Source of the DNA: Obrimoposthia wandeli
Taxonomy: Eukaryota
Assembly (NCBI GenBank): GCA_977020255.1
Contig: CDROCS010000295.1
Span: forward strand, 62,001 to 126,000
DNA length: 64,000 nt
Direction: 5' to 3'
The notes under the pieces were generated by a model. It was not told where the DNA came from, did no database searches, and worked only from the letters and a program-made list of their open reading frames with translations. How positions within the stretch are numbered: the first letter of the stretch is position 1; the number at the start of each line of letters is the position of its first letter. The position numbers and the translations under genes are program-made. Below are positions 24,243 to 62,550 of the stretch, piece after piece.

Positions 24243-24250
24243 GATTCCTA

Positions 24251-31929: not shown

Positions 31930-32193
31930 CTAATCGTTTTGCAACGATAACCATAAAATACATAAATGTCCACAGTTTCTCGTCGCAGGATCCTGATATT
32001 GTATCTTGTTGTAAAATACTCTTATTCGTCCTTTTTGAATAGTCGAAACAAGTTTGTGTGGATAATACATTGCAAGTGGATCAAATACATGTATTGTCCA
32101 CTCTCTAACATAAATAGCCATCCAATGTTCTCCTGGTAAATTCGAAGTATGAGTATTGATAATGTAACCTCCAGATTGAAAAAATGGAATCAT
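31930..32193 (-). CDS. Polinton adenain-like cysteine (maturation) protease
   Basis: NTHTSNLPGEHWMAIY...FDPL...YQDPATRNCGHLC (His/Asp/Gln/Cys catalytic set). Confidence 0.9.
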   Translation of the reverse strand: MIPFFQSGGYIINTHTSNLPGEHWMAIYVREWTIHVFDPLAMYYPHKLVSTIQKGRIRVFYNKIQYQDPATRNCGHLCILWLSLQND

Positions 32194-32311
32194 ATCAATA
32201 GGATAAACTCCATTGAATTTATCACCCAGGACCTTCTCTGCTGATTCTTGTACTTGTTTTGAACTAAATAAAAATTAATAAATATAAATTTAAAATATGT
32301 CTTACTCCATT

Positions 32312-33500: not shown

Positions 33501-33529
33501 ACACAATTCAGTTTTGGCGCAACTCATTT

Positions 33530-33860
33530 TGCAAATATTGTTCCTTCAACATTCTTACGTTTGTTTATATTGATTTTTTGCTTCTTTTTACTTTTAAATC
33601 CACTACCTCCTTGGCTTTTATTTGATTTACGTTTTCTAATCAAATTAGCAACTTCAGGTAAAACATTATCAAGTTCATCAAGCGCATGCTTCTTAAAAGT
33701 TGGTATTAGTTTATTGTCTTTAGATGAAAGGTAATCCTTTCATAATTTTGATATAAATCGCCTGAGTCTCTTTAAAAGACGAAAGGCAAATCTACCTTAT
33801 GTTCTAAGCCAGCCAGATCCATATTGTTTACCAACAAAATATGGTAATTCTCCACCTTGT
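33530..33860 (-). pseudogene. Polinton small basic QxGxG protein (PZ-like putative core/membrane-active protein), disrupted
   Basis: Minus-strand GKQYGSGWLRT*GRFAFRLLKRL...KSQGGSGFKSKKK located between mCP and MCP. Confidence 0.55.
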
Positions 33861-33879
33861 TGGCTTTGTCTATAAGCTT

Positions 33880-34915
33880 CAATTATTGCTGGATTCGCCA
33901 TTTTGTTTTCTTAAATGTATTGTTAAACTTGTCTTGGCCTCGTGCGTGAAATCTATTAGTTGTCCGGAATCATCTCTAATATTTACTTCAATATTGTTTA
34001 TAGAAAAAAGAGAAACTGGAAGATACATTGGCTGATCTATACACATACCAACAGCGTCCCCATCTCTAGTTTCATTTTTAGATATCTATATTGTTCTCAA
34101 AAGTGGAACTCGCTGTCCTCCTACAAGCGTTGGTTCTATTAAATTAGTATAAATATATAAATGATTAACAGCATTTAAAAGTTTTGCCTTATTTTTAGCT
34201 TTTATGGTTTTTATTGTATGGGTTTCAAAGGTATTTCTGTTTAAACCAAGGTTTTTAGCGAGTTTATCATCAAATGAAACTCGTTTTATATTGCTCTTTA
34301 CTGTAAACGTTATTTTACCATTTTTTAATGTTTCACATTTATCCAAATATTCATTACATTCCTTCTGTATTAATTTACAGAAATTCACTTCACTGTCTAT
34401 TTTATAATCTTTTGAAAACATTTTCAGTTCCACTACAGTCTTTGGTCTCGTTTCAACTAACAACACTCTTACTACTCTACTAGGAACATTTTAAAACATT
34501 TTAGATGAGACAATATTAGATCTCTTCATACCTACTACATGTCCACTATCAAAACCGAATTGAAGAGCTTCTCTTCCAGATTCGAATATAATTTGAATAG
34601 GTTGAAAATGTTTTGATCGATTTTTAAATCTGACTTTGTTTTTTTTCATATATTACTTTCACTTCTTTATCTATACAATTGTAAATCAAACCCGATCACA
34701 ACTTTAGTTGTTTTTTCATGATCAACTTCTTTTGTAAACGAAATACGTGAGTTTTTTCTGATAGTAATTGGAGAATAATAAAAAGAAAATTCGGTTAAAG
34801 CCGCTTCCCATTCTCCTTGGAGATTTATAGGATTTCCCAATCGATAATAAAGCTACTAGCGTAATTATCTGGTTGAGTCTTCGGACATCCGTTACTAGGT
34901 AAAACCATATACATA
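33880..34915 (-). pseudogene. Polinton minor capsid (penton) protein, frameshifted
   Basis: N-terminal MVLPSNGCPKTQPDNYASSFIIDWENPINLQGEWEAALTEFS, central LYIYTNLIEPTLVGGQRVPLLRTI, C-terminal NNIEVNIRDDSGQLIDF. Confidence 0.85.
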
Positions 34916-34919
34916 GACT

Positions 34920-35830
34920 TCATATTATATTAGATGCTGATATCCAAGTTGGGTCTGAATAACCATGCCATTTAACAAAGTATTGTTTATGTTTACGGGC
35001 ACCCTTAGATTTTAATATTTTTTGAATACGGAAAACGCTAGGTTTATTTGATATTACTTGTAGTTCTTGCTCGTAAAATTTACCGTGAACGATATTATTG
35101 TCAGCATCTTTAATAGTATACATTATTGGATTACTCTTTTAATCAATTTTACTTATACAAAATATTTCATCGCTCCAATTCTGATTAAAGTTTTTAATAA
35201 ATGGAGTAGAGCTAATTTTCGAAATTCGAACATATTCGTTTTTCTTATATTTAGCTTTTTTAATTTTTACTTTTTTATTCCTGTTCATCCAAATGTCCAT
35301 AGAGTTTTTATTAGTAACATCAACAGGTCTCATTCCCTTGAGACCTCTATGTTCAGAGTGATTATATGCATGTATTATTTTAGGTAAAACTTGGATCCAT
35401 TTTTTATTTCCTTCTTTTGTGAAATACTTTTTATCAAATACCTAAATCAGTTTGCACATTTTGTGGAATGTCCAATTTTAATATTTCTTTAATGGCTTCA
35501 AGCATAGCTAATGAAGACTTTGCTTTAACTGGAATTGCACGAGCAAACCTGCTAAATACATCAATACATGTTAAAATATATCGATATCCCTTATTAATGG
35601 AAGAATATGGGATCATCTCCATCAAATCCATTTGCCATAAATTATTAGGACTGCTGGTTTTGTAAGCTCTAGTTGGAAACCTTCTTCTCATCGGCTTGTT
35701 CAGACTGTAGGCTAACTGGTCGCTCAGCCATTTCTGCGTTTTCTTGTAATTCTGTTTTTGTTCTTTTTGCTAATTTTGAAACTCCTGTATAGCCAATTGG
35801 ATCTTTTGGATTGAACCATATCTTCTCCAT
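34920..35830 (-). pseudogene. int: Polinton retroviral-like integrase with C-terminal chromodomain, frameshifted
   Basis: WFNPKDPIGYTGV, LWQMDLMEM...YRYILTCIDVFSRFA, VQTDLG, VRISK...NWSDEIF, VHGKFYEQELQ, QYFVKWHGYS. Confidence 0.92.
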
Positions 35831-35916
35831 TACAACAATTTGAATAGAAAGAAAATTTAGGTTTAGGTAAAGAAGGGCTAGCACCCATATCTTTAGCTGA
35901 TTTTAGAAATAATTGT

Positions 35917-36246
35917 TTATGAACGTGTCGCAGCTATAATACTACTGATAATTGAAGCAACAACTGGAATAACAGCCCCTATGAAACCACCATTCTGTTT
36001 AAGAGTAATATTTCGTTTTCTTTTTTTACTTTTTACATTAGCAATATCTAGAAGAGTTTTTCTATATTTCTTTAATATATTTTTCCGATTTCCAACTTTT
36101 ACTCGACCCAAAACTATATTATATAAAACTTCCAATAAATCATCTACAACAAAGGATGGAAATGCTTTAAGAATAATCATTCTCTTATTAGAAGAGGCTT
36201 TGACTAAAGCTTTAAAATAGGGTATGCTTCTTTGTATTTTCTTCAT
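35917..36246 (-). CDS. Conserved Polinton small protein with QNGG-F motif and amphipathic C-terminal helix
   Basis: Basic N-terminus, LEVLYNIVLG, then LKQNGGFIGAVIPVVASIISSII; resembles an adenain cleavage site followed by a hydrophobic peptide. Confidence 0.7.
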   Translation of the reverse strand: MKKIQRSIPYFKALVKASSNKRMIILKAFPSFVVDDLLEVLYNIVLGRVKVGNRKNILKKYRKTLLDIANVKSKKRKRNITLKQNGGFIGAVIPVVASIISSIIAATRS

Positions 36247-36261
36247 TTTAATAAAAAAGGT

Positions 36262-36417
36262 TCAATTTAAATATTGTTTATATTCGAAGCCATTTAAGTT
36301 TTTTTTATTTTTAACTACAGATTTGATTAATTTTTTCACTTCTTTTTTCTTAATGATTCTTTTTTTTGATTTCTTAGATTTTACTTTACGTTTTACTATC
36401 AACTTAGTAAAAGGCAT
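36262..36417 (-). CDS. 51-aa lysine-rich protein (not in the ORF track)
   Basis: MPFTKLIVKRKVKSKKSKKRIIKKKEVKKLIKSVVKNKKNLNGFEYKQYLN, sitting between the ATPase and the QNGG protein. Confidence 0.45.
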   Translation of the reverse strand: MPFTKLIVKRKVKSKKSKKRIIKKKEVKKLIKSVVKNKKNLNGFEYKQYLN

Positions 36418-36424
36418 TGCGAAT

Positions 36425-37077
36425 TTATTTTTTATAATTGTTCTCTATTTGTTTATAAACAGTTACTCCCTTAGAATTAAATATGTCTGTTAAAACACGT
36501 AAATCATCTGGGCAAGCTTGTGTAAAGTCAATAAATATATACCCATGTGCTTGTTTAGCAGCATCGTGGAATGAATCAACTAGAAAGTTCTTATTTTGAG
36601 GAAATGCCTGTCTGGCCACAAAATCAACAACTGTTTGATCTCTAGGATTATTAAATAAAACTAAGTAATGTACATTAAGATTTCTTGTTCTATGGTGACC
36701 TCCTTGGTGAAACAGATTTTGAGTGATAAATATAACTGTTACTTCACGATGTCTTGCAATCTTTGTAAATAAATTATTAAATTCCGATTCCTTGTTAGCC
36801 TCCTCATACAAATCATCAATTATTACTACATCTTCTTTTTTCAATCTTTCACACAAATTTGCATCAAATCCTTCAATAAATTTTATACCCTTCAACTTGC
36901 AAACTTCATTTTTGTTAACCCGCTTTCCCCTCCTCCACCATGATGCCAATAAATATTTTTGAAACTAGATTTGAAAAGAGATTCATTTTGCAATAATTTA
37001 CAGACGAAATGTGTCTTTCCACTTCCACTAGGGCCAACTATTTGAAATACAGCATTATTATTTAGTTCCATTGCATA
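36425..37077 (-). pseudogene. A32/FtsK-like packaging ATPase, frameshifted near the N-terminus
   Basis: MELNNNAVFQIVGPSGSGKTHFV (Walker A, upstream frame), VVIIDDL (Walker B), ITQNLF...RTRNLNVHYLVLFNNPRD. Confidence 0.92.
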
Positions 37078-37108
37078 TACTCTTTCATTTTTAATATTGT
37101 TTATGTTA

Positions 37109-37381
37109 TCATAGAAGTTTCCTTATTGAAATGTACAATGTTAGAGCTATTGTAGATGAAATACAAAAATTAATTAATGAATATTTGGCTATAATTTTAT
37201 TTATTTGTGTACGATTTCTAAATTCTCGAATAACGTGTGATCTAATCAATATTTCAATGTTATCTCTTGTTATATCATTATTTTTTAATTCTGATAAAAT
37301 TTCTTTACCCCTAATTTTTCCAGAAAATATTTCGTCGGCAAGCCGATCCACTTCATTGTCTCTATTTATAGTATTATTCAT
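37109..37381 (-). CDS. Polinton hypothetical protein with C-terminal hydrophobic segment
   Basis: ATG-initiated 90-aa ORF co-oriented with the ATPase; tail YSLINFCISSTIALTLYI. Confidence 0.4.
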   Translation of the reverse strand: MNNTINRDNEVDRLADEIFSGKIRGKEILSELKNNDITRDNIEILIRSHVIREFRNRTQINKIIAKYSLINFCISSTIALTLYISIRKLL

Positions 37382-37530
37382 TCAAAACAATAAGTTTAAA
37401 CGGGTTTGTTTATAGAAAAGATAACAAGATGTAATAAGATATATTTTCTAAAATCAAATCAACAATGTTTGGATAATCAAAATATTTCAATCCCAATATC
37501 ATATTAAAGAGGCATCAAATTATACTAGTT

Positions 37531-37743
37531 ATGAATCCTGTGAAAATATCAAAAGTGCAGAATAAATATCTCATCGAAATTTTAACAACAACTGATATTG
37601 ATCAATTGAAAAATATTTTGGGATTTTACATTCCTGATTATGTATATGAAAGAAATTGTTTCCAGCTTGAAACTGATCCCGGTGTGGATTTTAAAGATGA
37701 TCAAGGATATTTGATTGCTCCAATTCTAGATGAAGAACTATAG
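37531..37743 (+). CDS. Polinton hypothetical protein
   Basis: ATG-initiated 70-aa ORF inside the element near its right end. Confidence 0.35.
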   Translation: MNPVKISKVQNKYLIEILTTTDIDQLKNILGFYIPDYVYERNCFQLETDPGVDFKDDQGYLIAPILDEEL

Positions 37744-38439
37744 AATATCTCAATACGTCTCAATGGATATTTTGCTGATGACGGGAAAATGCAGGCTTCT
37801 CTGGAGTTTGAGTGAAGCCAATATGTTGTTTTATGTTTAATAAATATTTTGAAAAATAATTTTGTCTCGTATTTTGTTTTTTTCTCCTCTAAATTCTAAA
37901 ACTGACATAGATATTTAACATGTAGTAATTTATTAATCTAAAATCTTTCTTAAAAATAGTAGTAATATTTGAAATCTCGTCTGCGAAAAGCCGCCGGGGT
38001 CAATATGGATTCTCGTGGTCTTCTCTAACCACTTTTGAGATTCGTGGTAAAATTTTTAAAAAATGTGGTGCTGGGGGTACCCCCCTTCCTTCCCCCTTTG
38101 GGTGGGATGAAGACACACATACACGAAATTTCACTCCACACACATGCACGAATTTTCACTCCACACACATGCTCGGTTTTAAAGGACAGTAAGGGGGACC
38201 CCCTTCTTTCCCCTTTGGGTGGAATGGAGACACACATACACGAAATTTCACTCTACACACCTGCACGAAATTTCACTCCACACACATGCACGGTTTTAAA
38301 GGACAGTAGGGGGAGGGTGTGGATTAGACCGGACACATCCACCTACTGATAAGATTTAAAAGTACGTGGTACGTTCAAATGTCCCGGGCCTAACAGAGAA
38401 ATAAGAATGTAAACAAATATATTTTTATTTAATGACAAC

Positions 38440-47213: not shown

Positions 47214-49243
47214 TGTTAAGATTAGGTTTTAAATAATATTAAAATAATTAATCTATTTATATTAAAATAAAAATCCTTGAAAGCAAGGTTATAATTAAAA
47301 ATAAAATTAAATTATAAAAGTAAATTCTTAAGAATAAAATTAGCGGGAAAATATTAGGACCACGAAGGTCATGTGTAAGCATGTGAGGTATATAAAGAAG
47401 TTAAAGTTAACCAAAAGGGCCCCCGAAAACGTTATAGAAGGTTAATTAAGAAACAGAGAAACGGAATTAAGAATAAGAAGAATTTGATTAAGAAGAAACA
47501 GAAGCAGGAAGAAAGGAAATCAATTAGCCAGAAATCAAATTGTCCATTAAGTCTAGACGGATTATAACGGCAGGCCTCAATCCCACGAGTCCATTAGCAG
47601 ACAGAGACAGTCGAATCGGATCGCAACAGGGCCACGATTCGTATAAAAAAGGAATTGGCTACAATTCATTGCACAACAAAAAAGAAACCAAAAAATATAA
47701 ATCAGAATTGTCAGTTAGATCGAAATTGATAACTTGATTTTCAGAAAAAGTATCAAAGAAGTAACGTGATCTCAGAAGTTCAGACAGACAGAATAAATCG
47801 AAATTGATAAAGAACTGTAGAAGACAAGCCGTGGAAAGGTTATAATTTATATAAAATTGAAACTGAAAAGAGTTTTAGAAACAGGAAGCAGCTAAGCTAT
47901 ATTGCTCAGAATCGACAAGTGGCACCGGAAGGAAAACAGCTATTCCAAAGGAAAGGCCAAATCAACGAACTAACAGAGATCGGAAGCACCTCAACCATCA
48001 GAACAATCAGGCAAGGATCTTTTGCCAGCAACTGACTTCGCGGATCAACACCAGTACTCAAATAAAGGTATAAAAAGACTAAGGAAGTAAAGTATCATTG
48101 TTAATTTGAAATTTTGGGAATATTTGATAAAAACTAAAGAAGTAAAATATCATTCTTAAATTGAGATTTTGTAAAGGGTTTTGATAAAAACTAAAGAAGT
48201 AAAATATCATTCTTAATTTGAGATTTTGTGAAGATTTTGATAAAAACTAAAGAAGTAAAATATCATTCTTAAATTGAGATTTTGTAAAGGGTTTTGATAA
48301 AAACTAAAGAAGTAAAATATCATTCTTAATTTGAGATTTTGTGAAGATTTTGATAAAAACTAAAGAAGTAAAATATCATTCTTAAATTGAGATTTTGTAA
48401 AGGGTTTTGATAAAAACTAAAGAAGTAAAATATCATTCATAAATTGAGATTTTGTAAAGGTTTCGATAAAAACTAAAGAAGTAAAATATCATTCATAAAT
48501 TGAGATTTTGTAAAGGTTTCGATAAAAACTAAAGAAGTAAAATATCATTGTTAAATTGAAATTTTGGAAATATTTTGATAAAAAACTAAAGAAGTAAAAT
48601 ATCATTGTTAAATTGAAATTTTGGGAAATTTTGATAAGAACTAAAGAAGTAAAATATCATTCGTAAATTGAAATTTTGTGAAGATTTGATAAAAACTAAA
48701 GAAGTAAAATATCATTGTTAAATTGAAATTTTGTGAATATTTTGATAAGAAGTAAAGAGAACGAAAACCGAAATTTACACCGTGAATAAACTAATTCCCT
48801 ATTTTAGAGCAACCTGCTCTCAAAAATTAATTCATATTTTCGAGCCAACAGCACTTCCAAAAGATCTACTACCTAAACCTTGTCGCATTTTAGAGTAAAG
48901 ACTCTCATAAAATAAATCACCCTAAAGTAAAATCGATACGTGGTTCATCCCCACTTGTGTAGAGACTTACAGAAGTCTTAGGAATTGTATTGTAATTTTT
49001 AGAACGTACTTAGACGTGTTAATTTAGTGTGCTTAGTAATAAACGATTTCCTACAACCAGAAAGCGTTTTTTAGACCCTTCAGAGTAAGAAACAACAAAC
49101 CTTCAGATAAGAATTGAGACAGGCAAGCATAACATTAAGTAGGCCACAAACATCTACAAGTCCTGCTTCTATAGAACTCACGTTGGGGCCCTCCACTAAA
49201 GAGGATCTATTTTAGAACACAGTTTCATATATAAACCCCAACA
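47214..49243 (+). mobile_element. 5' LTR (~2 kb)
   Basis: TGTT...AACA ends (left boundary inferred), TATATAAA near 47389, several AATAAA; the 3' part is homologous to 20590-21000 and is followed by the PBS. Confidence 0.7.
48071..48755. repeat. ~58-60 bp tandem array (about 11 copies) inside the LTR
   Basis: Unit aaaactaaagaagtaaaatatcattcttaaattgagattttgtaaagggttttgata with variants. Confidence 0.95.
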
Positions 49244-49251
49244 TATTAAAT

Positions 49252-49269
49252 TGGTGCCCCGAGTGAGGA
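49252..49269 (+). promoter_or_regulatory. Primer-binding site, elongator tRNA-Met-like
   Basis: TGGTGCCCCGAGTGAGGA is complementary to a tRNA 3' end ...UCCUCACUCGGGGCACCA, as recalled for metazoan elongator tRNA-Met; it lies 8 nt after the inferred LTR end. Confidence 0.75.
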
Positions 49270-49361
49270 TAGCTCGTCGGACACAGCGACTTCACGTAGA
49301 ATAAGAAAGCAAATTGAGAATAAGTTACAGAAGAGGAAGATATCAGCAAATTGAGATAAGA

Positions 49362-50177
49362 GAATTGATAAAGTTTGAGAATCGAGTAGATTTGTTCCTC
49401 GAATTAAGTAATTTGATAAAGTTTGAGAATCGAGTAGATTTGTTCCTCGAATTAAGTAATTTGGATAAATTTGTGAATCGAGTAGATTTGTTCCTCGAAT
49501 TAAGTAATTTGGATAAATTTGTGAATCGAGTAGATTTGTTCCTCGAATTAAGTAATTTGGATAGATTTGTGAATCGAGTAGATTTGTTCCTCGAATTAAG
49601 TAATTTGATAAAGTTTGAGAATCGAGTAGATTTGTTCCTCGAATTAAGTAATTTGGATAAATTTGTGAATCGAGTAGATTTGTTCCTCGAATTAAGTAAT
49701 TTGATAAAGTTTGAGAATCGAGTAGATTTGTTCCTCGAATTAAGTAATTTGATAAAGTTTGAGAATCGAGTAGATTTGTTCCTCGAATTAAGTAATTTGA
49801 TAAATTTGTGAATCGAGTAGATTTGTTCCTCGAATTAAGTAATTTGATAAAGTTTGAGAATCGAGTAGATTTGTTCCTCGAATTAAGTAATTTGATAAAG
49901 TTTGAGAATCGAGTAGATTTGTTCCTCGAATTAAGTAATTTGATAAAGTTTGAGAATCGAGTAGATTTGTTCCTCGAATTAAGTAATTTGGATAAATTTG
50001 TGAATCGAGTAGATTTGTTCCTCGAATTAAGTAATTTGATAAAGTTTGAGAATCGAGTAGATTTGTTCCTCGAATTAAGTAATTTGGATAAATTTGTGAA
50101 TCGAGTAGATTTGTTCCTCGAATTAAGTAATTTGGATAAATTTGTGAATCGAGTAGATTTGTTACTCGAAGTAATTA
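49362..50177. repeat. 48-bp tandem array (about 17 copies, two variants) in the 5' leader
   Basis: Variant A ttgataaagtttgagaatcgagtagatttgttcctcgaattaagtaat and variant B ttggataaatttgtgaatcgagtagatttgttcctcgaattaagtaat. Confidence 0.97.
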
Positions 50178-50717
50178 ATTGAATAGGTTAAGTCGAGTGA
50201 CGAGTCCTCGAATTAAATAAATTGATATAAGAAATCTTAAAATAAGAATTGTGAAATAAGATAAAAGTAATAAGTAAATTGATATCGTAAACGAATACAT
50301 AATTGATAAAACAACGAATAATAAAAAGGGACCAGCGTTTAATACTAGAAGACAAAGTCAGTTTCCACAGGAAGAGATAAAAAATAATAATTTAAGCCGA
50401 ATTGAACAGGTTCCTCAAAAAGATAAAAAAGTAATAGAAGAAGCTAGAATCGAAGAAAACGTATCAGAAAGAGACGTAAATCAATCAGCAGTTTCAACCG
50501 ACAGTTTTGATCTGACTGAATTGTTTGGTGAAATAAACCAAGAAGAAATTGAAATTATTGAAGTTCAAAACCCAGAAGAAATTGAAATTGCCAATCCAGC
50601 AGCGGTTGAGGAAGTTCAATTGAATAATATTGAAGAAATAGTTGAGGAGGACATAGCTGAAAATATGGCTCACGCAGGAGCTCAAGCAGGTAATAACCCA
50701 GGAATAATGTAGGAGGA

Positions 50718-53700
50718 ATGAATGCAGAACAGTTGGCACAAGCCTTGAATGCGACGTTGAGACCCAACATTTCGGGATCATTGCAGATTACAAAGTTTAA
50801 AGGAGATGAGGAAAGTATTTGTGACTTCCTCGCAGAATATTCGAGTTGCGCAGATGTTCAAGGATGGAACGATAGAGAAAAAGGTGTCCGTGTACAGGCT
50901 CATTTGACCGGATTAGCACTTGAAGTGTATAAACATTTGACAGAAGCAGAACGTTTAAATTGGGAAACGTTGGAAAGTGCTTTTATTGGAAAATTGGTAT
51001 TGGGAGACTTAGCAAAAGTAAATAAGCGAATCATGAGAGAACGAAAACAGAAACATGACGAAAGCGTGAATGAATACGCGTATGTTTTGAGAACCTTGGC
51101 CGCACGAGCGCACCCAAGAAGAATAGTGAGAAATCAGTTAGCTCAACCTGTAGCTCAAGAAGTACAAGCAGCGGAAAAGATCCGGAACCAAAATGAAATG
51201 GCAGAAGTTTTGTTAGATATATTTAGAGGAGGACTGAAAAAAGACATTAAAGTGTTATTGGCAGTATCGGATACAAATGATTTTGATATCGCCGTACGAA
51301 AGGCGAGAGAAATTGAGGAAAATATAAAAAATAACGCAGCATTGGCAATTTACACAATGACCACAGGTGATGACGATAAGACAAAGGTATTTGTGAAAAA
51401 GACAGAACCGAGTAATTTTCAGAATCGAAATTATGGACAAAATAAGTTCGAAAAAGGATATGAATCCAGTAACGGAAATAGAGATAATTTCCGAAGTAGA
51501 AATAGAGATGATTCAACAGGTAGAAATAATAGCGAGCCTTGGAACAGGAATCGAGACGATTCAAGAGGTAGAAGTAGTAATGATTCGTGGAACCGAAATA
51601 GAGATGATTCCAGAAATAGATTTAGTAGAGATAATTCAGGAAATTGCCTACCGTGGAGAGGAGACGATAGGAATTATAACGCAAACAGAGGATAGCGAAA
51701 TGACTCTCGATTTGGAAATAATGCAGGAAGTAGTGACGGAAGATTCAATAATCGAGGAAGCGGTTTTGAATCGAGTTTCCGAAGAAATGATTTTAGAGGA
51801 CGCTATGACAATAGACAGAATAGTCGTCGAATACAGTTCGAAAATGAACAAAATAAGATAGATATTCGAGGGAGAATAATGTATTATACGTGTAAACAAA
51901 TGGGTCACTACTCGAGAGATTGTACGAGAAGTAAAGAATTCGGAACTAACAGATTTGGAAATAATAATTTTGGAAATAATTATAGAGGATATAATTCACC
52001 CCTGCCATGGAATAGAGGTGGTGGGTATACTCTGCTGCAATGGAGACAGAATAATCAGTATACGGATAGACAACAGTCACCAGTCAGATACAATAATTAT
52101 GCAGACAGACAGCAAGGAGCTGAAAGATACAATAATTACGTAGGACAGCAAGGAGCTGAGCAATATAATAATTCCGGAAGATAAAATAATAATAATGTTG
52201 ACAAGACAAATAGTCGTGAGAGTTCGCCGAAACCGAAAGGAAATTTTAGTTACGTAAACGATGACAGCGATAGAAATCGCGAGATCGAACTTCGACGCGA
52301 AATAGATTTTGAAGATAGCGATAGTAAATTTGAACGAATGTTGGGAATAATTAAAGATTCACCGCATACAAAGATGGCGAATTTATCTACGTTGTCGAAA
52401 CAAGGAAAAAATCTGCACTCGAGAGAAGAGATGAATGATTTAATGAACCGAATACTAGAAGCGCATGAAAAACCAATAGAGAAAACGTGTAACGCACAAC
52501 CTATGACTGATCACATAGAAGCAGTAAGAAATGCTAAGAGTATGGAAAATGTGAAAAAGATAATTAGTGAAGCTAAAGAGACGTTGAATCAACCGTTAGA
52601 CGAAGCGAGTGAAACTCCAGAAGTTTTGGCAAAACTACAAACAATTAAAGTGCACAGATTGGAAGAAGTGCGAGCAGAATTGGTTAAACATAGTCATGAT
52701 AACTTGATTTACAAAGATGTATCACGAGGATTATTGAAAGGATATGGTCGTTACGTACAGAGATCAAATCAAAAAGGAACGATGAAAATTTCACTTCGAT
52801 TAATTTCCGGACAGAATATGCATGAAAAACGTAACGTATACCAAACAATGAAAACTATTCGAAAAAGGTTGGCCGAGAAACTCGAAATAGATGGAATGAA
52901 TATGTTGTTCCATTATAAAGGAAGATCACTAGATGATGAAGACATACCAGTCGAGTGCGGATATCCGATAGGAAACGAATTAGAGGAAAAAATTGATGTC
53001 ATCACTGTAGGACGTCAGGAGTTAGTAGATAATGAAGGATTGGCTGAGATATTAAATTCTACGTTAGATATGATAACAACACCTATAGAAATTCTAGACA
53101 GTTCAAGCGAAAGCGGAAATAATGATGTAGCTGAAGCTTGAAACAAGACGTCCACACCTGAACCAAACGTAGCTGAACCACAGGACGTGGAACCAAAAAA
53201 TGAGTTGACGAATCTGGTAGTTGAAGTACCACCTGAGCAAGAGATAATTCAAACCGGACAAGATGAAGTCACGGATGTAGCTAACCAAGTGAGAAACCGC
53301 GAAAAGCGTAACCGAACTAGTTAGAGAAGACGAAATCTCCGAGATTGTAGATTTAGATTCACCAATTTGGCATGCCGCATACAGAGATAGACAGGCAGAG
53401 CAGACGATGCGACAAAAATGAGGAGATTGGTCATGTAGCAGGACCAATTCAAGAGGTACAGTATAATGATGAACCGTATGATCCAGGTGAGAATCAAACT
53501 GAGTATCAGTATTTTCGAAGAGGGCCTGGAAAACCTAGAAAATATGGAAGTATATTACGAAATGTTCTAACTGCACCTCAAACTGATGAGGAGATACATC
53601 TAAGCATTGGACAGTTAGCAGCGTCATTAGAGCAGTATAGTGCAGAGCGAAATGAAGATATCAGGGGTGATATGAATTCGGAAGCTCCAAGTAGTAAAGA

Positions 53701-54055
53701 TATACTTACGGGAATTATCAGGCAAGTAAAGCCGAAGTTGTTCAAAATGTACAAAGATGAAACAACCGATATAACAGACAATTTGACTAGAGCAGTTAGA
53801 TCACAAATGTCTGCAGTGAAGAAAATGACTGCTAATCAAGAATACCATGCATCAATAGACAGATTCTATGATGGCGAAGTTTTAGCGAGATTATGTGGAA
53901 ACCAGACTACAAATAAGAAGCTAGTCACAGCGATTACATATATATGTTTCCAATTGACGGAAAGAACGAGCCAACCTCACGAAGTCAAACAAGGAATAAA
54001 TGAAGCGATATATCTGATCGAGAACGTATTGCAGCGACGAATTGACGAAAATTGA
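50718..54055 (+). pseudogene. gag: Extended Gag polyprotein (capsid, R/G/N-rich linker, Zn knuckle, ubiquitin-like domain, unknown domains)
   Basis: ITKFKGDEES..DFL...GWND, RKQKHDESVNEY, FRGGL (capsid); YYTCKQMGHYSRDC (CCHC with first C changed to Y). ORFs 50718, 51879 and 52338 share one frame separated by single stops; 53372 follows after a frameshift. Confidence 0.85.
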
Positions 54056-54181
54056 GGTTGGGCAAAATTAAGCGACTACGCTAAAACCATTGTGGAAATG
54101 AATGAAGACGATGAGGAACAATGCCATGAGAATCGTCAAAGAGAAAATAAAAAAACCGTCCGAAAGAAAGAAACAATCAAC

Positions 54182-54640
54182 NNNNNNNNNNNNNNNNNNN
54201 NNNNNNNNNNNNNNNNNNNNNNNNNNNNNNNNNNNNNNNNNNNNNNNNNNNNNNNNNNNNNNNNNNNNNNNNNNNNNNNNNNNNNNNNNNNNNNNNNNNN
54301 NNNNNNNNNNNNNNNNNNNNNNNNNNNNNNNNNNNNNNNNNNNNNNNNNNNNNNNNNNNNNNNNNNNNNNNNNNNNNNNNNNNNNNNNNNNNNNNNNNNN
54401 NNNNNNNNNNNNNNNNNNNNNNNNNNNNNNNNNNNNNNNNNNNNNNNNNNNNNNNNNNNNNNNNNNNNNNNNNNNNNNNNNNNNNNNNNNNNNNNNNNNN
54501 NNNNNNNNNNNNNNNNNNNNNNNNNNNNNNNNNNNNNNNNNNNNNNNNNNNNNNNNNNNNNNNNNNNNNNNNNNNNNNNNNNNNNNNNNNNNNNNNNNNN
54601 NNNNNNNNNNNNNNNNNNNNNNNNNNNNNNNNNNNNNNNN
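54182..54640. other. Assembly gap (459 N)
   Basis: Run of N bases. Confidence 1.
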
Positions 54641-54642: not shown

Positions 54643-55410
54643 CAGGCATCAGCGTTAGTAGCATACGACTGTAGCGTACCACAGATGGGACAAAAGTATT
54701 CACTGCTTGACAGCGAGGACTGTCCAGAATCACAACCCTCAAAATTAGAAATTAAAGGTGTTGAAAACTATTTCGTGTATCAGGATGTTGATAAAATACA
54801 GGTACAAGTGAAGGAATGCTCAGTTCATTCAAGTTATCACGAATTTTACTGTGGTCATAGAGGTTTTATGTCGGAAATCACACCTACCACACTGTACAAA
54901 CCACACAAGGTCTTTCCTGGAGATTGCGAAGGCGCATTTCGAACAGGAAAAATAGAAATAGATAAGAATTACAAACCTGATGTGAAAATTGGGGTGAGAC
55001 GATACGAAACAGTCACGAGAGTAGGATGACGATGGGCTGATGGATCTTGTGACGGAGGAACAAAAAACGTGCGTGGTACCGAAGTAACAGAGTTAGTAAT
55101 GGACGTAACTTACCAGATCGAATTAAAAACATGGACCGCCAATTTTGATAAAAATACAAAACGAATGATGAAGTATCCGGAATATAGATTGACAGATACA
55201 TCTTGTCATACAGGTGAATCCACCATTGTGTATCACGTGGATCCAAAACAATGCTCTTTAGTATTTTTGAAAGAGATTAGATTTAATAAAATAAAAGGGT
55301 TCCTGTATAATAAAGGTGGAGAAGGATTTCATAACATAACAGGACCAATTCCTACGACGCCGACACCTACACTGTTAATGGCAAAGAAAACAAAGAAAAA
55401 AAAAACCTAA
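54643..55410 (+). pseudogene. env: Chuvirus-like (class III fusion) glycoprotein, N-terminal ectodomain fragment
   Basis: QASALVAYDCSVPQMGQKYSLLDSEDC...VQVKECSVHSSYHEFYCG...DCEGAFRTGKI...VG*RWADGSCDGG matches the recalled YDC...SLLD.x.C...C...YCG...G..DG.C.G cysteine pattern of chuvirus-type glycoproteins; one in-frame TGA; no TM reached. Confidence 0.75.
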
Positions 55411-55522
55411 GAAAACTTTACATCATGAATTTTGCGAGTTTTGTATTGTTAAAAAAAAAATAAAGCAAAAAGAACAGAAAACTGAATGTATAGTCGAATA
55501 CCAAATCACACGTAAAGAGATT

Positions 55523-55882
55523 TTGGCTCAACAAGACACACCGGTAGTGTCATTCGTTAGAAGACTATATCCAAAAAAAGCAGAAAGAATCAGAGATTTG
55601 GTAGAAAATAAAATAAAAACTACGCGAAACGGATACGGATCAATTTTTGAATTACTGCGAGATAAAGATGACAGTACAATTGAAACAAAAGAAAAAGAGT
55701 ACATAAATGAACTAGAATACGTACTAGAAGATCCGGAATGCGCAGTTTGTATGGTCAACAAAATAGAAGTTGCCTTTTTACCATGCAGACATGTGAGAAC
55801 ATGTCGGAGATGTGCGAAGGAAATGGTATCATGCCCGATTTATGCCCAGAAAGATAATAGATCGACAAGTGAGAAATATTAG
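55523..55882 (+). pseudogene. IAP/MGRN-type RING-HC domain directly upstream of the protease
   Basis: ECAVCMVNKIEVAFLPCRHVRTCRRCAKEMVSCPI; a frameshift switches to RKIIDRQVR in the protease frame. Confidence 0.85.
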
Positions 55883-57241
55883 ATTTCACTATCCAAACAA
55901 AGGAAGTGGACCGACAAAATTTAATAATTCGATAAATACAATACACCATATGGGAAATATAAATGGAGCACAGCGACCAGCAGCTATCATTAGAGTGAAT
56001 AATTTAAAAGTAAAAGCCTTAATTGATACAGGTGCTGTAGCTTCGATAGTAAGTGAAGATTGTTTGACAGAGGAACAGAAACAAACAATGGCAGAACCAG
56101 ATGAATTCTTGGTATCGGTCAATGGAGACCCTGTAAAAGTGACGGGATAATTACCATGTACATTTATAATTGGACGTAATACGATCACTATACCAGTTAG
56201 AATCATGAAAGAATGTCTTGAACCTACAATTTTAGGAATGGATGTACTATCACAACTCAAAGGGATAAGTATTGATTTACAAGATCCAATATTGAAAGAT
56301 AGTAAGTCAAACAGACAAATAAATCAAATCAATGTAATTATAGAAAATCCTATAAAAATCTGTAAAAGATCGCAATTTCTTATTCAAGGTTACACATTAT
56401 AAGAAGATAAAGGACCAGTTGTGTTCGAACCATCACGGGATTTCATAGAGAAATACGAATTACCGATTGTGAGTACAGTATGTCTGATTGAAAACCACAA
56501 AATACCAGTTAGACTGATGAATACAACCAACAATGACATCCTATTATACAGAGGAATGAGGTTGGGAAAAATAGCACAGATGGAGAATTCCACTGTATGT
56601 GCTATGAAACTCGATAAAGATAGGAATGATTACGAAAAATAGTAATCCAAACAGAAAGACTGACAACCAGAGAAAAGAAACAATTACTCGATCTAATACA
56701 TAAATTTCCAAAAGTAATTGCAAAAAATCCGTATGACATAGGAGAAACACCTGTCATAAAACACACAATACCGCTGACAGAAGACAAAGTAGTCAGAAAA
56801 AGACCATATCGAGTACCATTACAGTTACAAGATGAAGTCAAAAGTCAGATTGAAGATATGTCTAGAACAGGAGTAATTAGACCGAGTTTTTCACCATTTT
56901 TAGCACCTGTGGTGTTAGTAAAAAAGAAGGATGGAAAAATGAGATTATGTATAGATTTCAGAGAACTGAACAAGATCACAAGAAAAGATGTGTATCCATT
57001 ACCTAGAATTGAAGAGATGCTTGATAAATTAGGTAATTCAGATTATTTTACGACATTGGATTTGCAGAGTGGATACTGGCAAATCGAGATAGAGGAAGAG
57101 GATAAACACAAAACAGCCTTTTCCTGCGGAGATGGACTATACGAATGCGAAAAAGGCCATTCGGACTGACAGGAGTGCCAGCAACATTTCAGCGTTGCAT
57201 GAATTTTGTACTCGCATCATGTGCAAACACGATGGTTTAAT
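55812..57241 (+). pseudogene. pol: pol, 5' part: aspartic protease, spacer and RT N-terminal half
   Basis: ALIDTGA and ILGMD (protease); RPYRVP, SPFLAPVVLVKKKDGKMRLCIDFRELN, YPLPRI, TLDLQSGYWQI, KTAF, PATFQR (RT); stops and frameshifts. Confidence 0.95.
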
Positions 57242-60200
57242 GGTTCTAGGACAATTACCCGCCGGACAATTACCCCCCGGACATTTACCCGCCGGACAAC
57301 TACCCGCCGGACAATTACCCGACTAGAACAATTACCCGCCGGACAAATACCCCCCGGACAATTACCCGACTAGGACAATTACCCGCCGGACAATTACCCC
57401 CCAAAAAATACAGGGCGAGTTGATGCACTTTTAATATAAACAATAAATTAAAATTTTTTACGAAGAGGGGTAATTTAATTATATTTATTTATTTAGATTA
57501 ATTAAATTAGTAAAAAGTTATTAATAAGGGGGTAATCAAAAAAGTGAAATATTAAAAAAGTAAAAAAGTTAAATAAGGATAAACTATAAAGGGAGGTATT
57601 AAAATGGTAAAAACTTTAAAGTGTTACTTAATTAAATGACAGATACTAACATATGATAATGGAATTGGTCTAGTATGACTCATGTATATTTAGACGCCAG
57701 TAATACAACTTAACGCTAAGAGAGTTTGTATAAAACTAATAAAACTATTTAGGTCAAAATTGATAAGTATATGTTCACAATGTTGGGGCAGACTTAATGA
57801 ATTAGGAGTTGGTGCGTGTTGAGGCGTAGCCAGTAGTTACAATTAAATCGAAGTTAGTTAGATTTATAAGTTAGTAAGATTCACAAGATAAACAATCATT
57901 GTATATTTTACCCATGGAATTTATTAACTCTAACCGGGGAAAAATAAAGGTACTATACAAGGGCTTTGTATATGTTAAGTCCAAAACGTTGTCATCTGGT
58001 GCTGTTTCTTACGAGTGTGAGCTCCGACGAAACAGCAAGCAATGCAAAGCTAGGATTATAGTAAGTGGCGATATGATTGTTAAACAGTTCAACGACCATA
58101 CTCATGCTGCTGATATTGGTCGACCAGAGGCACTGAAGATTCGTCAGTCGATAAAGAGTCGTGCTGTAAATAACGAGGAAACCCCTCAGCAAGTTATCAC
58201 CCAAGAGCTTCAAGTTATTTCCGACTCTGCTGCTGTGAAACTTCCAGCCATACGCAACATCCGACGTTGTATTCGTCGACATCGTCAAGTTGCCGGAAAT
58301 CCTCCCGCAATCCCGCAGACTCGTGCCGAAATTATACTACCTGAAAAGTACAAACGTACACTGGCAGATCAGCCTTTCCTATTATTTGACAGTGGTTCAG
58401 TTGATGATAGGATCCTTATGTTCTCTACAGAGCGTAATCTGCACATCCTCGACACATCCGTAGACTGGTTTTGTGATGGAACGTTTAAGGTTGTACCTGG
58501 TGTATTTTACCAATTATTTACAATTCACGGTCTTACCAACAACCACATGGTTCCCTGTGTCTATGCACTTTTGCCAAATAAGCAGGAAGTGACGTACGTG
58601 ACCTTTCTACGTGAACTTTATAGACTTAATCCGGAGCTAAAACCACGATCTATCATGATTGACTTTGAGTCGGCTTCCAGGAATGCACTGGCCGAGGTTT
58701 TTCCTGCCGCAACCATACAAGGATGCTTTTATCATTTGTCACAAGCCGTCTACCGCAAAGTCCAAAGTGTTGGACTTCAAGAGCAATATCAAAACAACGC
58801 CGATTTTAGCTTAAAGATTTGCATGATGACTGCTCTTGCTTTCACTCCACTGAACGATGTGGTAAACTCATTTGAACATCTGGCTGATTCTATGCCTGAG
58901 AAAGCACAACCCATTATAGACTATATTGAGGACACCTATATTGGTCGACACCAACGCTCTTCGCTCATGCCATGTGGAACGTCCGAGACAGAGTAGAGGA
59001 AGGACTTCCACGTACCAACAACCATGTGGAAGGTTGGCATCGACGTATGCAGTCTAATGTGGGAGCCTATCATCCTAGTATCTGGCATTTCCTGGATGTA
59101 TTGCAACGCGAGCAATCACTCAACGAAGTCATCATGACACAGATTCTAGCCGGACAAGCAGCCCCACCCCAACGTGGCAAATACAAGGCCATCACCGAGC
59201 GCCTAGTTACTGTTGTGGCTGACTATGACAACCGTGCTATCCTGGACTTTCTTTGTGGTATTGCACACAACCTACAGATGTAGATTCTGTGATGATCAAT
59301 GTGACTGTTATAGAATTGTTCTTATTCAAGAATAACTATACAAATAAATAAACACATGTCAATTGTTTTTTTCTTACCTTCCAGTATTCTTAACAATATC
59401 TATTCAATAACCTATTTAGCACTTTACTTTCTTCTTTTTCTTGTTGTAAGTCCTCTACTTCAAGTTTTTTCCTTTCTCTTACTTCTTCATCGTGTCTAAT
59501 GGCTACGCCTCAACTTGTCCAGCCCGAAACGGTTTCTAATTGAGTAAGTCTGCATCAACTCTCTCCAGGGCGAGTTGAGGCTCTTTTAAAGGGGTAATTT
59601 TGAGTAATTTTTTTTTGTAATGGAGAAACAAAAGCTAAAATAAAAAGGTCTAAATTGTAATTTAATTTCCATAAATCTGAAAGGGATGGGTATTAAAAAT
59701 TTTATGGGGTAACAAAATTTAGTAAGAGGTATAATAATTAATAAGATCAAAATATTAAAAAATGAAATAGTAAAATTTTAATAGGTGTAATTAAAAAAAA
59801 GTAAATAATAATAAGGGGTGTTAAAAAAGGGAAACATTAAAATATTAATAACAGATGATATAAAAAGGAAAAAAATGAAATGAAGATAAAAAAAGGAAAC
59901 AGTCAAACTTTAAAGGTAAAAAAGTAGAAAAGGTAAATATTAACAAATGAGACATTGTGAACATATACTTATCAATTTTGACCTAAATAGTTTTATTAGT
60001 TTTATACAAACTCTCTTAGCGTTAAGTTGTATTACTGGCGTCTAAATATACATGAGTCATACTAGACCAATTCCATTATCATATGTTAGTATCTGTCATT
60101 TAATTTTGTAACACTTTAAAGTTTTTACCATGTTAATACCTCCCTTTTTAGTTTATCCTTATTTAACTTTTTTCCTTTTTTAATTTTTAGGTTTTTATAC

Positions 60201-60460
60201 CCCCTTATTAATAACTTTTTACTAATTTAATTAATCTAAATAAATAAATACAATTAAATTAACCCTCTTCGTAAAAAATTTTAATTTATTGTTTATATTA
60301 AAAGTGCATCAACTCGCCCTGTATTTTTTGGGGGGTAATTGTCCGGTGGGTAATTGGCCTAGTCGGGTAATTGTCCGGGGGGTATTTGTAAGGCGGGTAT
60401 TTGTCCTAGTCGGGTAATTGTCCGGCGGGTAAATGTCCGGCGGGTAATTGTCCTGTTACC
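57242..60460 (+). mobile_element. Mutator (MULE) DNA transposon inserted in RT
   Basis: ~540-bp TIRs (57242-57783 and 59952-60460) with terminal ggacaattacccgcc subrepeats; 8-bp TSD ggtttaat at 57234-57241 and 60461-60468. Confidence 0.95.
57899..59283 (+). pseudogene. FLYWCH-MULE transposase with one frameshift near 58960
   Basis: YKGFVYVK...YEC...CKARI (FLYWCH), WFCDGTF...YQLFTIH, PCVYALLPNK, IMIDFE, GCFYHLSQA, RTNNHVEGWH, HPSIWHFL. Confidence 0.92.
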
Positions 60461-60468: not shown

Positions 60469-61547
60469 TCGATGACATAATAATATTTTCTAAAACGTTC
60501 GAAGAACATCTAAAAAATCTTGAAGTTGTATTTAAAAGACTGGAAAACACTAAATTAAAAGTTAAACCTACAAAATGCGAATGGGCTAAAGAGCGAGTAA
60601 CATTTTTAGGACATATAGTATCGAAAGAAGGCATCCGACCTGATCCAGCAAAGATCGAGAAAGTAAAAGCGCATGTAGTGCCAAAGACTGTTAATGAAAT
60701 ACAGAGTTTTTAGGTCTTGCGAACTATTATAGACGATTTGTTGAACATTTTTCAGATATAGCAACACCATTGAGAAAGTTGACGAGGAAAGATGAGAAGT
60801 TCATATGGGGAAAAGAAGCACAACAAGCGTTCGAGCATTTAAAGGAAAGACTGATAAAAGCACAAATATTAGCGTTTCCAGATATAAACCGATAATTCAT
60901 ATTAATGACGGATGCAAGTAACTATGCTGTAGGAGCAGCATTGGGAGAAGAGGATGACGAGGGAAGAGAACACGTCATCGCGTATGCGAGTAGAGGGTTA
61001 AACAGAGCTGAACTCTGTTATTGAAAAGGAATATCTAGCCATAGTATATTCATGTAGACAGTACAGACACTACTTGCCAGGAGAAAATGTATTCCTGTAT
61101 ACAGATCACAAACCACTACAGTTCTTGTATAAACATAGAGACGAGATGAGTAGATTAAACAGATGGTTTCTGAAATTGGCCGAATTTGATCTAGAAATCC
61201 GTTATAGAACCGGAAAGTCAAATGGAAATGCAGATTGTTTGTCGAGATTGATAAATGTAGACGAGAAAGGAAATATAATTCCAGAAGAAGGTCAAGATGA
61301 AGTCAACGACCAAAAAGGAGAAACAAATCTACTAACGATTTTGCTGAATAAGGGTAAAATAGACAAAGAGATCATCAAGGAACATAAAGAAGATGAAGAA
61401 CTGAGTCTAATCAAAGAACTGTTAGTGAAAGGAGATCTAAACGATGAAATGACGAAAACATACTCGATAAAAGAAGGAATCTTGTATATTGTCAACAATG
61501 TCGGAAACATAGTAGTAGTAATTCCGAAATCATTGAAAACAGTTTAG
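60469..61547 (+). pseudogene. pol: pol, 3' part: RT C-terminal half and RNase H, truncated before integrase
   Basis: FDDIIIFSKTFEEHL, KPTKC, FLGHIVS, GLANYYRRFV, TDASNYAVGA, IAYASR, YTDHKPL, RLNRWFLKL, NGNADCLSR. Confidence 0.95.
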
Positions 61548-61732
61548 AAAGAGATAATCTTGAGCTGTGGTTTGTAAATATCAACAAGATTAAGATTCCA
61601 ATCAGAGCCGAATATTATAAGAATGTTTAAAATTCAAATTGCGATTGGTCCTAAGCATAATAAACTTCGCTGTCAATTACGATTTGTCTGGAGCACTGCT
61701 GACTGTATCTTATTATTTCAGGCGCAGCCGCC

Positions 61733-61922
61733 CGGACCGGAGGGTCGAGTCGCTGTCTGTGAAATTTGCGAGGATGAACCAATAAGGATGGCCCTGGTTC
61801 CATGTGGCTATACGATGTGTATGCAGTGCTCCTTGTCGATACAAGACTGTCCATTCTGTAGAGAAATTGTTAACAAACGGCAGAAATTAACTTTGGAGAA
61901 GAAGATGCAGATCCAGAAATAA
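61733..61922 (+). CDS. RING-HC-like domain (IAP type; His replaced by Tyr)
   Basis: CEICEDEPIRMALVPCGYTMCMQCSLSIQDCPFCREIV; preceded by a ttattatttcag acceptor-like site. Confidence 0.75.
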
Positions 61923-62392
61923 AACTTGAGCTTTAAATGTTTTCTATGTATGTTGAAATGTCATTGACACTCAATATAAATGTAGGAGTAACGGCAGTCA
62001 TTTAAAATAAGAGCAATCAAATAACCTGGGATCAGTTTCAAGCTGGAAAGAATTTCCTTCGTATATTTAATCAGGTGAGTAACAATTTAAATAATTTTTA
62101 TAGCTGCGATAATTTGTAGTCTTCATTTGATGATTATTTACCCTAAAAAAACTTCGAATCCGATTTAAAATTTTAAAAAAATTATTTTGTTAACGATCAT
62201 TTTAATATTTATTCTATTCACAGTAATATTAAAAAAGAACTACGAGTCTAATTTATAGTTTTGATAAATTTCATCATTTGTCATATTCATTTTATTTACA
62301 TTTAAAGCATTTGTGAATTTGTGAATTTGATTTGTAGTTTTAACTACCAACTTCTATAAGCTACTTCAATAAATAACTTTGAATTACATAAC

Positions 62393-62550
62393 AGTAGGTG
62401 GATGTGTCCGGTTAATAAACCCCCAGGTGTGTTACCACTGTCCTTTAAAAACGTGCATGCGTGTGGAGTGAAATATCGTGTATGTGTGTGGAGTGAAATT
62501 TTCTACCCCCCCTAACACTCAAAAAACTAATTAACCCCATATATCACCCT
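62393..62550 (+). mobile_element. Left end of another Polinton of the same family
   Basis: AGTAGGTGGATGTGTCCGG, gtgtggagtgaaat repeats and acactcaaaaaa.taattaac.ccatata, as at 29216-29390; no right end in the window. Confidence 0.8.

What the first reader, a model, noticed from the sequence alone, without database searches (positions are those of the whole stretch)
55523..56150. IAP-type RING E3 domain apparently fused to the N-terminus of the retroelement protease
The RING-HC ends CPI and, after a single frameshift, continues RKIIDRQVR..., a typical IAP-RING tail, in the same frame as ALIDTGA. The ancestral Pol therefore probably began RING-PR-RT-RH. A ligase released by the element's own protease could degrade restriction factors or modulate apoptosis.
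Basis: partly seen in the sequence, partly recalled or inferred. Interest (0 to 1): 0.72.

Follow-up and report, generated by a model that had tools for sequence, protein, structure and literature searches.

The report
Retroelement carrying an apoptosis-regulator RING domain
A large virus-like jumping gene of an animal carries, inside its protein chain just ahead of its protease, a RING domain like that of cell-death-inhibitor proteins; this echoes the planarian Burro elements and may help the element keep host cells alive.

Summary
An IAP-type RING (55730-55840; best solved matches cIAP1, XIAP, cIAP2) lies about 45 codons before a retropepsin. Contigs from two studies show that the frameshift at 55841-55848 and the nearby stops belong to this decayed copy: other copies have a complete RING and run into the protease in one frame. 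The interpretation needs one correction. The RING does not start a separate Pol. It sits in a variable slot between a class III (gB-like) env and the protease of a Burro-like Gag-Ubl-BCL2-like-Env-PR-RT polyprotein. A deletion in this copy removed most of env and whatever came next, so a BIR domain is untested. None of 207 fetched proteins and 33 loci of relatives has a RING, including 10 of 10 with env and protease in one frame, so it is a lineage-specific capture. The closest precedent is planarian Burro1, whose BIR+RING region is reported to be anti-apoptotic (seen second-hand only). Most likely the element's protease frees the RING module to act on host apoptosis or ubiquitin signalling. 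That step is inferred, and the tail lacks the aromatic residue at the cIAP1 Phe616 position. Verdict: new variant of a known kind.

The parts
48808..49246 (+). 3' part of the element's 5' LTR
   Evidence: 87.6% identical over 442 nt to an LTR on the minus strand at 20587-21023
49252..49269 (+). primer-binding site
   Evidence: TGG-starting tract just after the LTR end; match to elongator tRNA-Met is recalled, not tested
50278..52184 (+). gag with one zinc knuckle, broken by stops
   Evidence: PF03732 E 0.0012, PF00098 E 2.8e-5; aligns to L002 residues 58-420
52560..53144 (+). region holding a ubiquitin-like domain, in the gag frame
   Evidence: PF00240 E 0.093 and 0.027, weak; L002 has the same weak hit and aligns here at E 4e-5; frames
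53660..54079 (+). helical domain, possibly BCL2-like
   Evidence: low-confidence model (pLDDT 49); 10 of the top 50 rows are Bcl-2 family, Z 4.1-5.6, but not rank 1; sequence searches negative
54182..54640 (.). assembly gap
   Evidence: 459 N
54643..55330 (+). N-terminal third of a class III (gB/chuvirus-like) env
   Evidence: PF24664 E 2.4e-12; 37% identity to L001 residues 486-704
55384..55405 (+). internal deletion junction of this copy; the rest of env, its membrane anchor and unknown further sequence are missing
   Evidence: loose ends on both sides in X1 (28 contigs), X3 (27) and X5; env is about 640 aa in relatives
55406..55480 (+). degenerate zinc-binding remnant in the RING frame (second half of another RING, or end of a BIR)
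   Evidence: PF00097 E 0.068; BRCA1 RING E 0.82; weak
55535..55663 (+). faint UBA-like segment
   Evidence: aligns to the cIAP1 chain upstream of its RING, conditional E 0.0015, independent E 270; not recovered when searched without the RING; the name UBA for that part of cIAP1 is recalled
55700..55840 (+). IAP-type RING-HC with its preceding helix; 7 of 8 ligands in this copy
55841..55848 (+). copy-specific frameshift at the eighth zinc ligand
   Evidence: tables 4, 7 and 8
55848..55976 (+). IAP-like RING tail and linker, in the protease frame
   Evidence: aligns to the cIAP1 tail; linker read
55977..56290 (+). retropepsin, DTG at 56025; copy-specific stop at 56148-56150
56291..56630 (+). PR-RT spacer shared with relatives (dUTPase-like position in Burro; not confirmed here)
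   Evidence: aligns to L001, L002 and P0003; no Pfam or PDB hit
56636..57237 (+). reverse transcriptase, 5' part
   Evidence: PF00078 E 9e-14; 59-62% identity to L001 and L002
57242..60460 (+). MULE DNA transposon inserted into RT
   Evidence: PF10551 and PF04500; long inverted repeats; 8-bp duplication on both sides
60471..61487 (+). rest of RT and RNase H; no integrase follows in the window

Best explanation
The RING is a captured IAP-type module built into the single long polyprotein of a Burro-like, env-bearing Ty3/Gypsy element (Gag, Ubl, BCL2-like, Env, RING, PR, spacer, RT, RH). Shown: it is IAP-type, it is family-wide, other copies hold it in frame with the protease, and the nearest RING-less relatives have the same one-ORF layout. 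Inferred: (1) it follows the membrane anchor of Env and so faces the cytosol; (2) the element's protease, in freeing its own N-terminus, also frees the RING's C-terminal tail, which IAP RINGs use to dimerise and activate E2~Ub; (3) the released module acts on host IAP, caspase or ubiquitin signalling and keeps element-expressing cells alive, as reported for Burro1. My odds: in frame with PR in the family 0.93; part of one Gag-Env-Pol ORF 0.8; active ligase with an apoptosis-related role about 0.45.
For:: length differences from the window cluster at 55842-55848 (X1 22,972 of 37,534 depth at 55842; X3 5,084 of 6,624). Loose ends before 55854 (X3 34 contigs, agreement 0.96; X2 43 contigs, 0.95) carry a complete RING end in register with the protease frame. 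One X5 contig from another study spans 55514-56030 with a net length that brings the two frames into register. Stops at 55027-55029, 56148-56150 and 56400-56402 differ in 97% or more of X1 depth at the listed positions. All 30 bins are covered in 4 of 4 runs. IAP RINGs are the top 9 of 16 hits, and the window's own residues match cIAP1 Arg606 (linchpin) and Arg614 (roles from PMC6349121); the RT groups (94/91) with L001, L002, P0003, P0004, P0048 and P0026; 10 relatives have env and PR in one ORF with a slot of 36-738 aa between them, 7 of them with a further protease motif in it; a hydrophobic peak near the end of env in 5 of 6 relatives. Burro layout and Burro1 B-IAP.
Against: No activity, expression or cleavage was tested. 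The position of cIAP1 Phe616, which is needed for activity, is Ile here; an aromatic lies two residues further on. An aromatic-Pro site just after the tail could be the cut, but such pairs occur 0.16-0.30 times per 60 aa in relatives and are not conserved at that place. Env-to-RING continuity in this family is not seen directly, because the deletion hides it. X2 shows only 993 of 4,682 depth at the 55842 row (more at 55845 and 55848), X5 scores 0 in the listed indel rows so the places of its gaps are not shown, and 7 indel rows and 57 joints were not displayed. X1, X2 and X3 are one sample and may be the window's source. The clade's support (94/91) is just under the tool's starred threshold. 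No BIR was found.
Confidence: 0.6

Rival explanations
1. The RING stays on the cytoplasmic tail of Env after the protease is cut away, and works as a membrane-tethered ligase on surface proteins or in particle budding rather than as a soluble apoptosis regulator.
For: It lies after env in a one-ORF layout, with the membrane anchor at the end of env in relatives. No cleavage site upstream of the RING could be identified.
Against: The sequence between the anchor and the RING is deleted here, so its length and content are unknown. The faint UBA-like segment and the IAP best hits point to an IAP origin.
Confidence: 0.2
2. The RING is folded but catalytically weak. It acts as a decoy that pairs with host IAP RINGs or binds E2, or it is a passenger of a recent capture.
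For: The tail aromatic is not at the cIAP1 Phe616 position, and the tail is not at a natural C-terminus. The slot tolerates varied cargo, and 0 of 10 relatives have a RING there. A second, degenerate zinc remnant sits just upstream.
Against: Other copies keep the full ligand set; the linchpin and +9 Arg positions and the preceding helix are kept.
Confidence: 0.15
3. One reading: a separate Pol that begins RING-PR-RT-RH as the ancestral state.
For: RING and PR are in one frame in other copies.
Against: The frame stays open upstream of 55406 in the loose ends. The closest relatives have no separate Pol and no RING.
Confidence: 0.07
4. The neighbourhood is a chance product of this decayed copy (an unrelated RING fragment landing next to PR), or the shift is a programmed frameshift of the family.
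For: This copy has an internal deletion just upstream, a transposon insertion, and another unrelated RING fragment at 61578-61922.
Against: Thousands of variant contigs cover RING and PR; the listed joints that skip the RING are single contigs; the frameshift is absent from the contigs that cross it; an independent study shows the same.
Confidence: 0.03

Closest known systems
Burro1/GYPSM1 giant Ty3/Gypsy elements of planarians (PMC6431247 section 7, read; Lee et al. 2026 Dev Cell, doi 10.1016/j.devcel.2026.03.001, seen only as cited in PMC13465017)
   Same: One polyprotein with Gag and CCHC at the start, a ubiquitin-like domain, a BCL2-like domain, a mononegavirus-like env between BCL2 and PR, and an IAP-derived region (BIR+RING in Burro1, reported to protect stem cells from caspase-mediated death).
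   Different: No BIR, MATH, Smc or ankyrin domain is detected in this copy, though a gap and a deletion hide parts. Only one zinc knuckle is detected. Burro1 is reported from freshwater and land planarians, whereas this family turns up in a marine metagenome. I could not see where the RING lies in Burro1, nor place Burro in the tree.
Cellular IAP RING ligases cIAP1, cIAP2, XIAP (PDB 3t6p, 6hpr, 3eb5, 4ic2; PMC6349121 passages)
   Same: RING-HC spacing, preceding helix, linchpin Arg, tail Arg equal to cIAP1 Arg614, faint UBA-like segment upstream.
   Different: The RING is internal to a polyprotein instead of C-terminal; no aromatic at the Phe616 position; no BIR seen.
Unnamed single-ORF gag-env-pol Gypsy elements from metagenomes (L001, L002, P0002, P0003, P0011, P0048)
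   Same: Nearest by RT (56-62% identity for L001, L002, P0003, P0048) and env; same domain order.
   Different: Their env-PR slot holds extra protease copies or short linkers, never a RING or BIR.
Anakin (BEL/Pao element with a chuvirus glycoprotein; search listing and a passage of PMC12440569; its superfamily is recalled)
   Same: Same class of captured fusion protein.
   Different: Different retroelement lineage; no RING described in what I saw.

Membership tests
IAP-type RING-HC ligase | C3HC4 ligand set with IAP spacing | tested here: met
   7 of 8 ligands in this copy; complete in other copies (table 7)
IAP-type RING-HC ligase | closest solved relatives are IAP RINGs | tested here: met
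   top 9 of 16 PDB hits
IAP-type RING-HC ligase | linchpin Arg and tail Arg (cIAP1 Arg606, Arg614) | tested here: met
   alignment; roles
IAP-type RING-HC ligase | tail Phe/Tyr at the cIAP1 Phe616 position | tested here: not met
   Ile at that position by counting from the aligned Arg; Phe two residues later
IAP-type RING-HC ligase | RING at the free C-terminus | tested here: not met
   continues into the protease; could arise only by cleavage
IAP-type RING-HC ligase | dimerisation and E3 activity | not testable with these tools
   needs bench work; the single-sequence model failed (pLDDT 40)
IAP protein (BIRC family) | at least one BIR domain | tested here: inconclusive
   no BIR hit, but the upstream sequence is deleted in this copy and the remnant at 55406-55480 is ambiguous
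Burro elements | env in frame between gag and protease in one ORF | tested here: inconclusive
   order met in the window and one ORF in 10 relatives; continuity in this family is hidden by a gap and a deletion
Burro elements | ubiquitin-like and BCL2-like domains before env | tested here: inconclusive
   weak Pfam ubiquitin hits; Bcl-2 folds are 10 of 50 rows from a low-confidence model
Burro elements | dUTPase-like region between PR and RT | tested here: inconclusive
   conserved spacer present; no family hit
Burro elements | MATH, Smc, ankyrin and BIR domains of Burro1 | tested here: inconclusive
   none detected in the ORFs scanned; parts of the element are missing
Burro elements | RT falls in the Burro clade; planarian host; length over 30 kb | not testable with these tools
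   no named Burro sequence was returned, the organism is coded, no genome is held and the element is cut off near 61545
Ty3/Gypsy (Metaviridae) | LTR, primer site, order PR-RT-RH-IN | tested here: met
   LTR, PBS and PR-RT-RH in the window; integrase missing here but in that order in L001, L002, P0003 and P0048

The most novel reading that the evidence does not exclude
A marine animal's lineage of single-ORF Gag-Env-Pol elements captured an IAP RING module independently of planarian Burro1 and placed it directly before the protease, so that maturation of the element's own protease frees the RING tail and switches the ligase on. This would be convergent anti-apoptotic armament in retroelements, with a ligase gated by the protease.
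Probability: 0.25. Interest if true: 0.72.

Novelty: new variant of a known kind. Interest (0 to 1): 0.47.

Why it matters
Burro1 is the reported case of a retrotransposon whose captured IAP region benefits its host. A second, high-copy family with an IAP-type RING, next to relatives that lack it, gives a natural comparison for when and how such modules are gained. It also suggests that the env-protease slot of these one-ORF elements is a place where cargo is swapped. If cleavage gates the ligase, it would tie retroelement maturation to host cell-death control.

Tried and rejected
No genome is held for this window, so copies could not be aligned from an assembly. No RNA holder was listed. Protein searches with the RING ORF found no relative: 0 of 432 candidates among longer proteins and 0 of 39 of similar length; this is weak evidence. 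A search of that database with the read-through RING-PR protein could not be made. Viral contigs gave nothing for PR, RT, RING or env queries and genome contigs nothing for env. The single-sequence fold of 55406-55840 failed (pLDDT 40) and was not searched. The Atlas gave RING clusters at 0.89 (lead only) and nothing useful for the helical domain. Sequence searches did not confirm BCL2 or dUTPase. The narrow IAP-RING pattern missed the window's own RING, so I replaced it with a looser one that passes 3 of 3 window controls. The aromatic-Pro site after the tail is no better than background. dN/dS could not be computed, because the read tool returns no per-copy sequences. Earlier notes of this scan held nothing. 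Lee et al. 2026 and Grohme et al. 2018 are not in the library, so their figures and supplements, which probably show where the RING lies in Burro1, were not seen.

Full report
Observation. The window has a RING-HC at 55730-55840 (PF13920, E 5.8e-10) and a retropepsin with DTG at 56025 (PF00077 above its cut-off). They lie in different frames, with one shift at 55841-55848. The shift falls on the eighth zinc ligand, so this copy shows seven of eight. Read with X at the breaks, the segment's best solved relatives are cIAP1, XIAP and cIAP2 (top 9 of 16 hits, E 5e-8 to 9e-7), ahead of MIB1, BIRC7, MYLIP and CGRRF1. The alignment covers the helix before the RING and the tail after it.

Is the break specific to this copy? 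No genome is held, so I used sequencing runs. Five runs from two studies hold the stretch, and I laid 4 of the 5. X1, X2 and X3 are one sample of organism A and may be the window's source; X5 is a marine metagenome from another study. In X1, X3 and X2, 27,191, 57,477 and 60,209 contig records align, mostly at 90-99% identity, from which I infer a high-copy family. All 30 bins are covered in all four runs. Length differences from the window cluster at 55842-55848: at 55842, 22,972 of 37,534 depth in X1, 5,084 of 6,624 in X3 and 993 of 4,682 in X2, with more at 55845 and 55848. Loose ends before 55854 (34 contigs in X3, 43 in X2, agreement 0.95-0.96) carry a complete RING end in register with the protease frame. 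One X5 contig spans 55514-56030 with a net length that brings the two frames into register, though the table does not show where its gaps lie. The stops in env (55027-55029), in PR (56148-56150) and in the spacer (56400-56402) differ in 97% or more of X1 depth at the listed positions, and length differences at 56636 and 57153 are seen in three runs plus X5. The listed joints that skip the RING are single contigs; 57 joints and 7 indel rows were not shown. So the family holds RING and protease in one frame, and this copy is decayed.

What the RING is part of. Upstream lie an LTR end and primer site (49246, 49252), gag with a zinc knuckle, a weak ubiquitin-like domain, a helical domain, an assembly gap and the first third of a class III env (PF24664, E 2.4e-12). 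At 55384-55405 the contigs show loose ends on both sides: this copy has lost the rest of env, its membrane anchor and whatever followed. The loose ends before 55405 stay open in the RING frame, so the RING does not begin an ORF. Downstream come a spacer, RT (split by a MULE transposon) and RNase H; the element breaks off near 61545. A search with the protease gave 86 proteins, a metagenome scan with RT gave 33 loci, and a protein search with RT listed 120 of 336 hits. In an RT tree of 34 rows built from an unbroken piece, the window groups at 94/91 with L001, L002, P0003, P0004, P0048 and P0026; this is just under the tool's starred threshold. L001, L002, P0003 and P0048 encode env, PR, RT, RH and IN in one ORF. 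Ten relatives have env and PR in one ORF; the slot between env and the last protease is 36-738 aa long and holds another protease motif in 7 of 10. None has a RING or BIR by Pfam, and a loosened RING pattern that finds 3 of 3 window controls finds 0 of 207 proteins and 0 of 33 loci on the plus strand. Many of those records are fragments or distant, so the 10 one-ORF relatives are the informative ones. The RING is thus cargo gained by this lineage in a variable slot, not the ancestral start of a Pol.

Just upstream of the RING, in the same frame, are a faint match to the part of cIAP1 ahead of its RING (conditional E 0.0015; not recovered alone) and a degenerate zinc remnant at 55406-55480 (PF00097 E 0.068). 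The remnant could be half of another RING or the end of a BIR. The deletion prevents a decision.

How it most likely works. In 5 of 6 relatives a hydrophobic peak lies near the end of env, so what follows, RING included, should face the cytosol (inference). Retropepsins cut themselves out of their polyproteins (established knowledge). cIAP1 dimerises through the RING, the helix before it and the C-terminal tail; Arg606, Arg614 and Phe616 are needed to activate E2~Ub (PMC6349121, passages). The window keeps the two Arg positions but has Ile at the Phe616 position, with Phe two residues later. Cleavage in the linker of about 45 residues would free the tail, which makes a ligase gated by the protease plausible. 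No site could be singled out. With a possible BCL2-like domain in the same chain (10 of 50 fold rows from a poor model), an anti-apoptotic role is the best guess. An Env-tethered ligase and a decoy or passenger are the main rivals. Nothing here points to restriction factors as targets.

Comparison with what is known. PMC6431247 (section 7 read in full) describes planarian Burro elements: one ORF of about 4,900-5,100 aa with Gag, a Ubi2/SUMO-like motif, BCL2, env between BCL2 and PR, BIR, ankyrin and a dUTPase-like region. PMC13465017 (passages) reports that Burro1 has a B-IAP region of RING and BIR that protects stem cells from caspase-mediated apoptosis, citing Lee et al. 2026, and calls Burro1 planarian-specific. 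I could not read Lee et al. 2026 or Grohme et al. 2018, nor their supplements, so the place of the RING in Burro1 is unknown to me and may match this one. PMC8532177, PMC11410931 and PMC12440569 (passages) add no domain detail on this point. Searches for other RING-bearing LTR polyproteins (listings only) showed none, but the library lacks most subscription papers and repeat databases. The element works like Burro. Membership in Burro is unproven: no BIR was seen, no Burro RT was available for the tree, and the host is unknown, with a marine hint from X5.

Verdict. The architecture needs correcting, and the function is inferred. It is a new variant of a known kind, interest 0.47. The boldest open reading is an independent capture with a ligase switched on by the element's protease (probability 0.25, interest 0.72).

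Noticed in passing
window 20587-27400 (minus strand): 3' end of a related element: an LTR 87.6% like the one at 48808-49246, preceded by accessory ORFs. These include a dual-specificity phosphatase (PF00782 E 3e-32), membrane-protein-like ORFs and three related RING-H2 domains near 22976, 22619 and 21976. It suggests a large RING- and phosphatase-rich accessory region in a sister family.
   Followed up: partly
window 61578-61922 (+): A second IAP-type RING (PF13920 E 3.4e-9; BIRC7 and XIAP best) right after the point where the element breaks off. Tyr stands at the His ligand, and it is only faintly like the first RING (E 0.05-0.57). Its origin is unknown.
   Followed up: partly
window 27434-38322 and 62028-62550: Decayed Maverick/Polinton: DNA polymerase B (PF03175), A32-like ATPase (PF04665) and capsid-like ORFs, with terminal repeats that recur near 1700 and 62400.
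   Followed up: no
window 57242-60460: MULE transposon with about 500-bp inverted repeats and an 8-bp target duplication, inserted just before the catalytic motif of RT.
   Followed up: partly
window 48068-48760 and 49323-50197: 56-nt tandem array upstream of the LTR end and 48-nt tandem array in the leader; the latter is open in one frame for 168 codons.
   Followed up: no
L001 2-10282 and 10617-12107; L002 97-11208 and 12085-13473: Uninterrupted ORFs of 3426 and 3703 aa of the env-PR-RT type, with two or three protease domains, hydrophobic segments after integrase and a downstream RNase T-like exonuclease ORF. With P0002, P0003, P0011 and P0048 they show that the Burro-like layout is widespread in unnamed metagenome records.
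   Followed up: partly
P0045 and P0051: Polyproteins with a protease after integrase; P0045 also has ankyrin repeats, as Burro1 does.
   Followed up: no
P0048: An env-bearing Gypsy polyprotein deposited as a protein of a bacterial metagenome-assembled genome; probably eukaryotic contamination of that bin.
   Followed up: no
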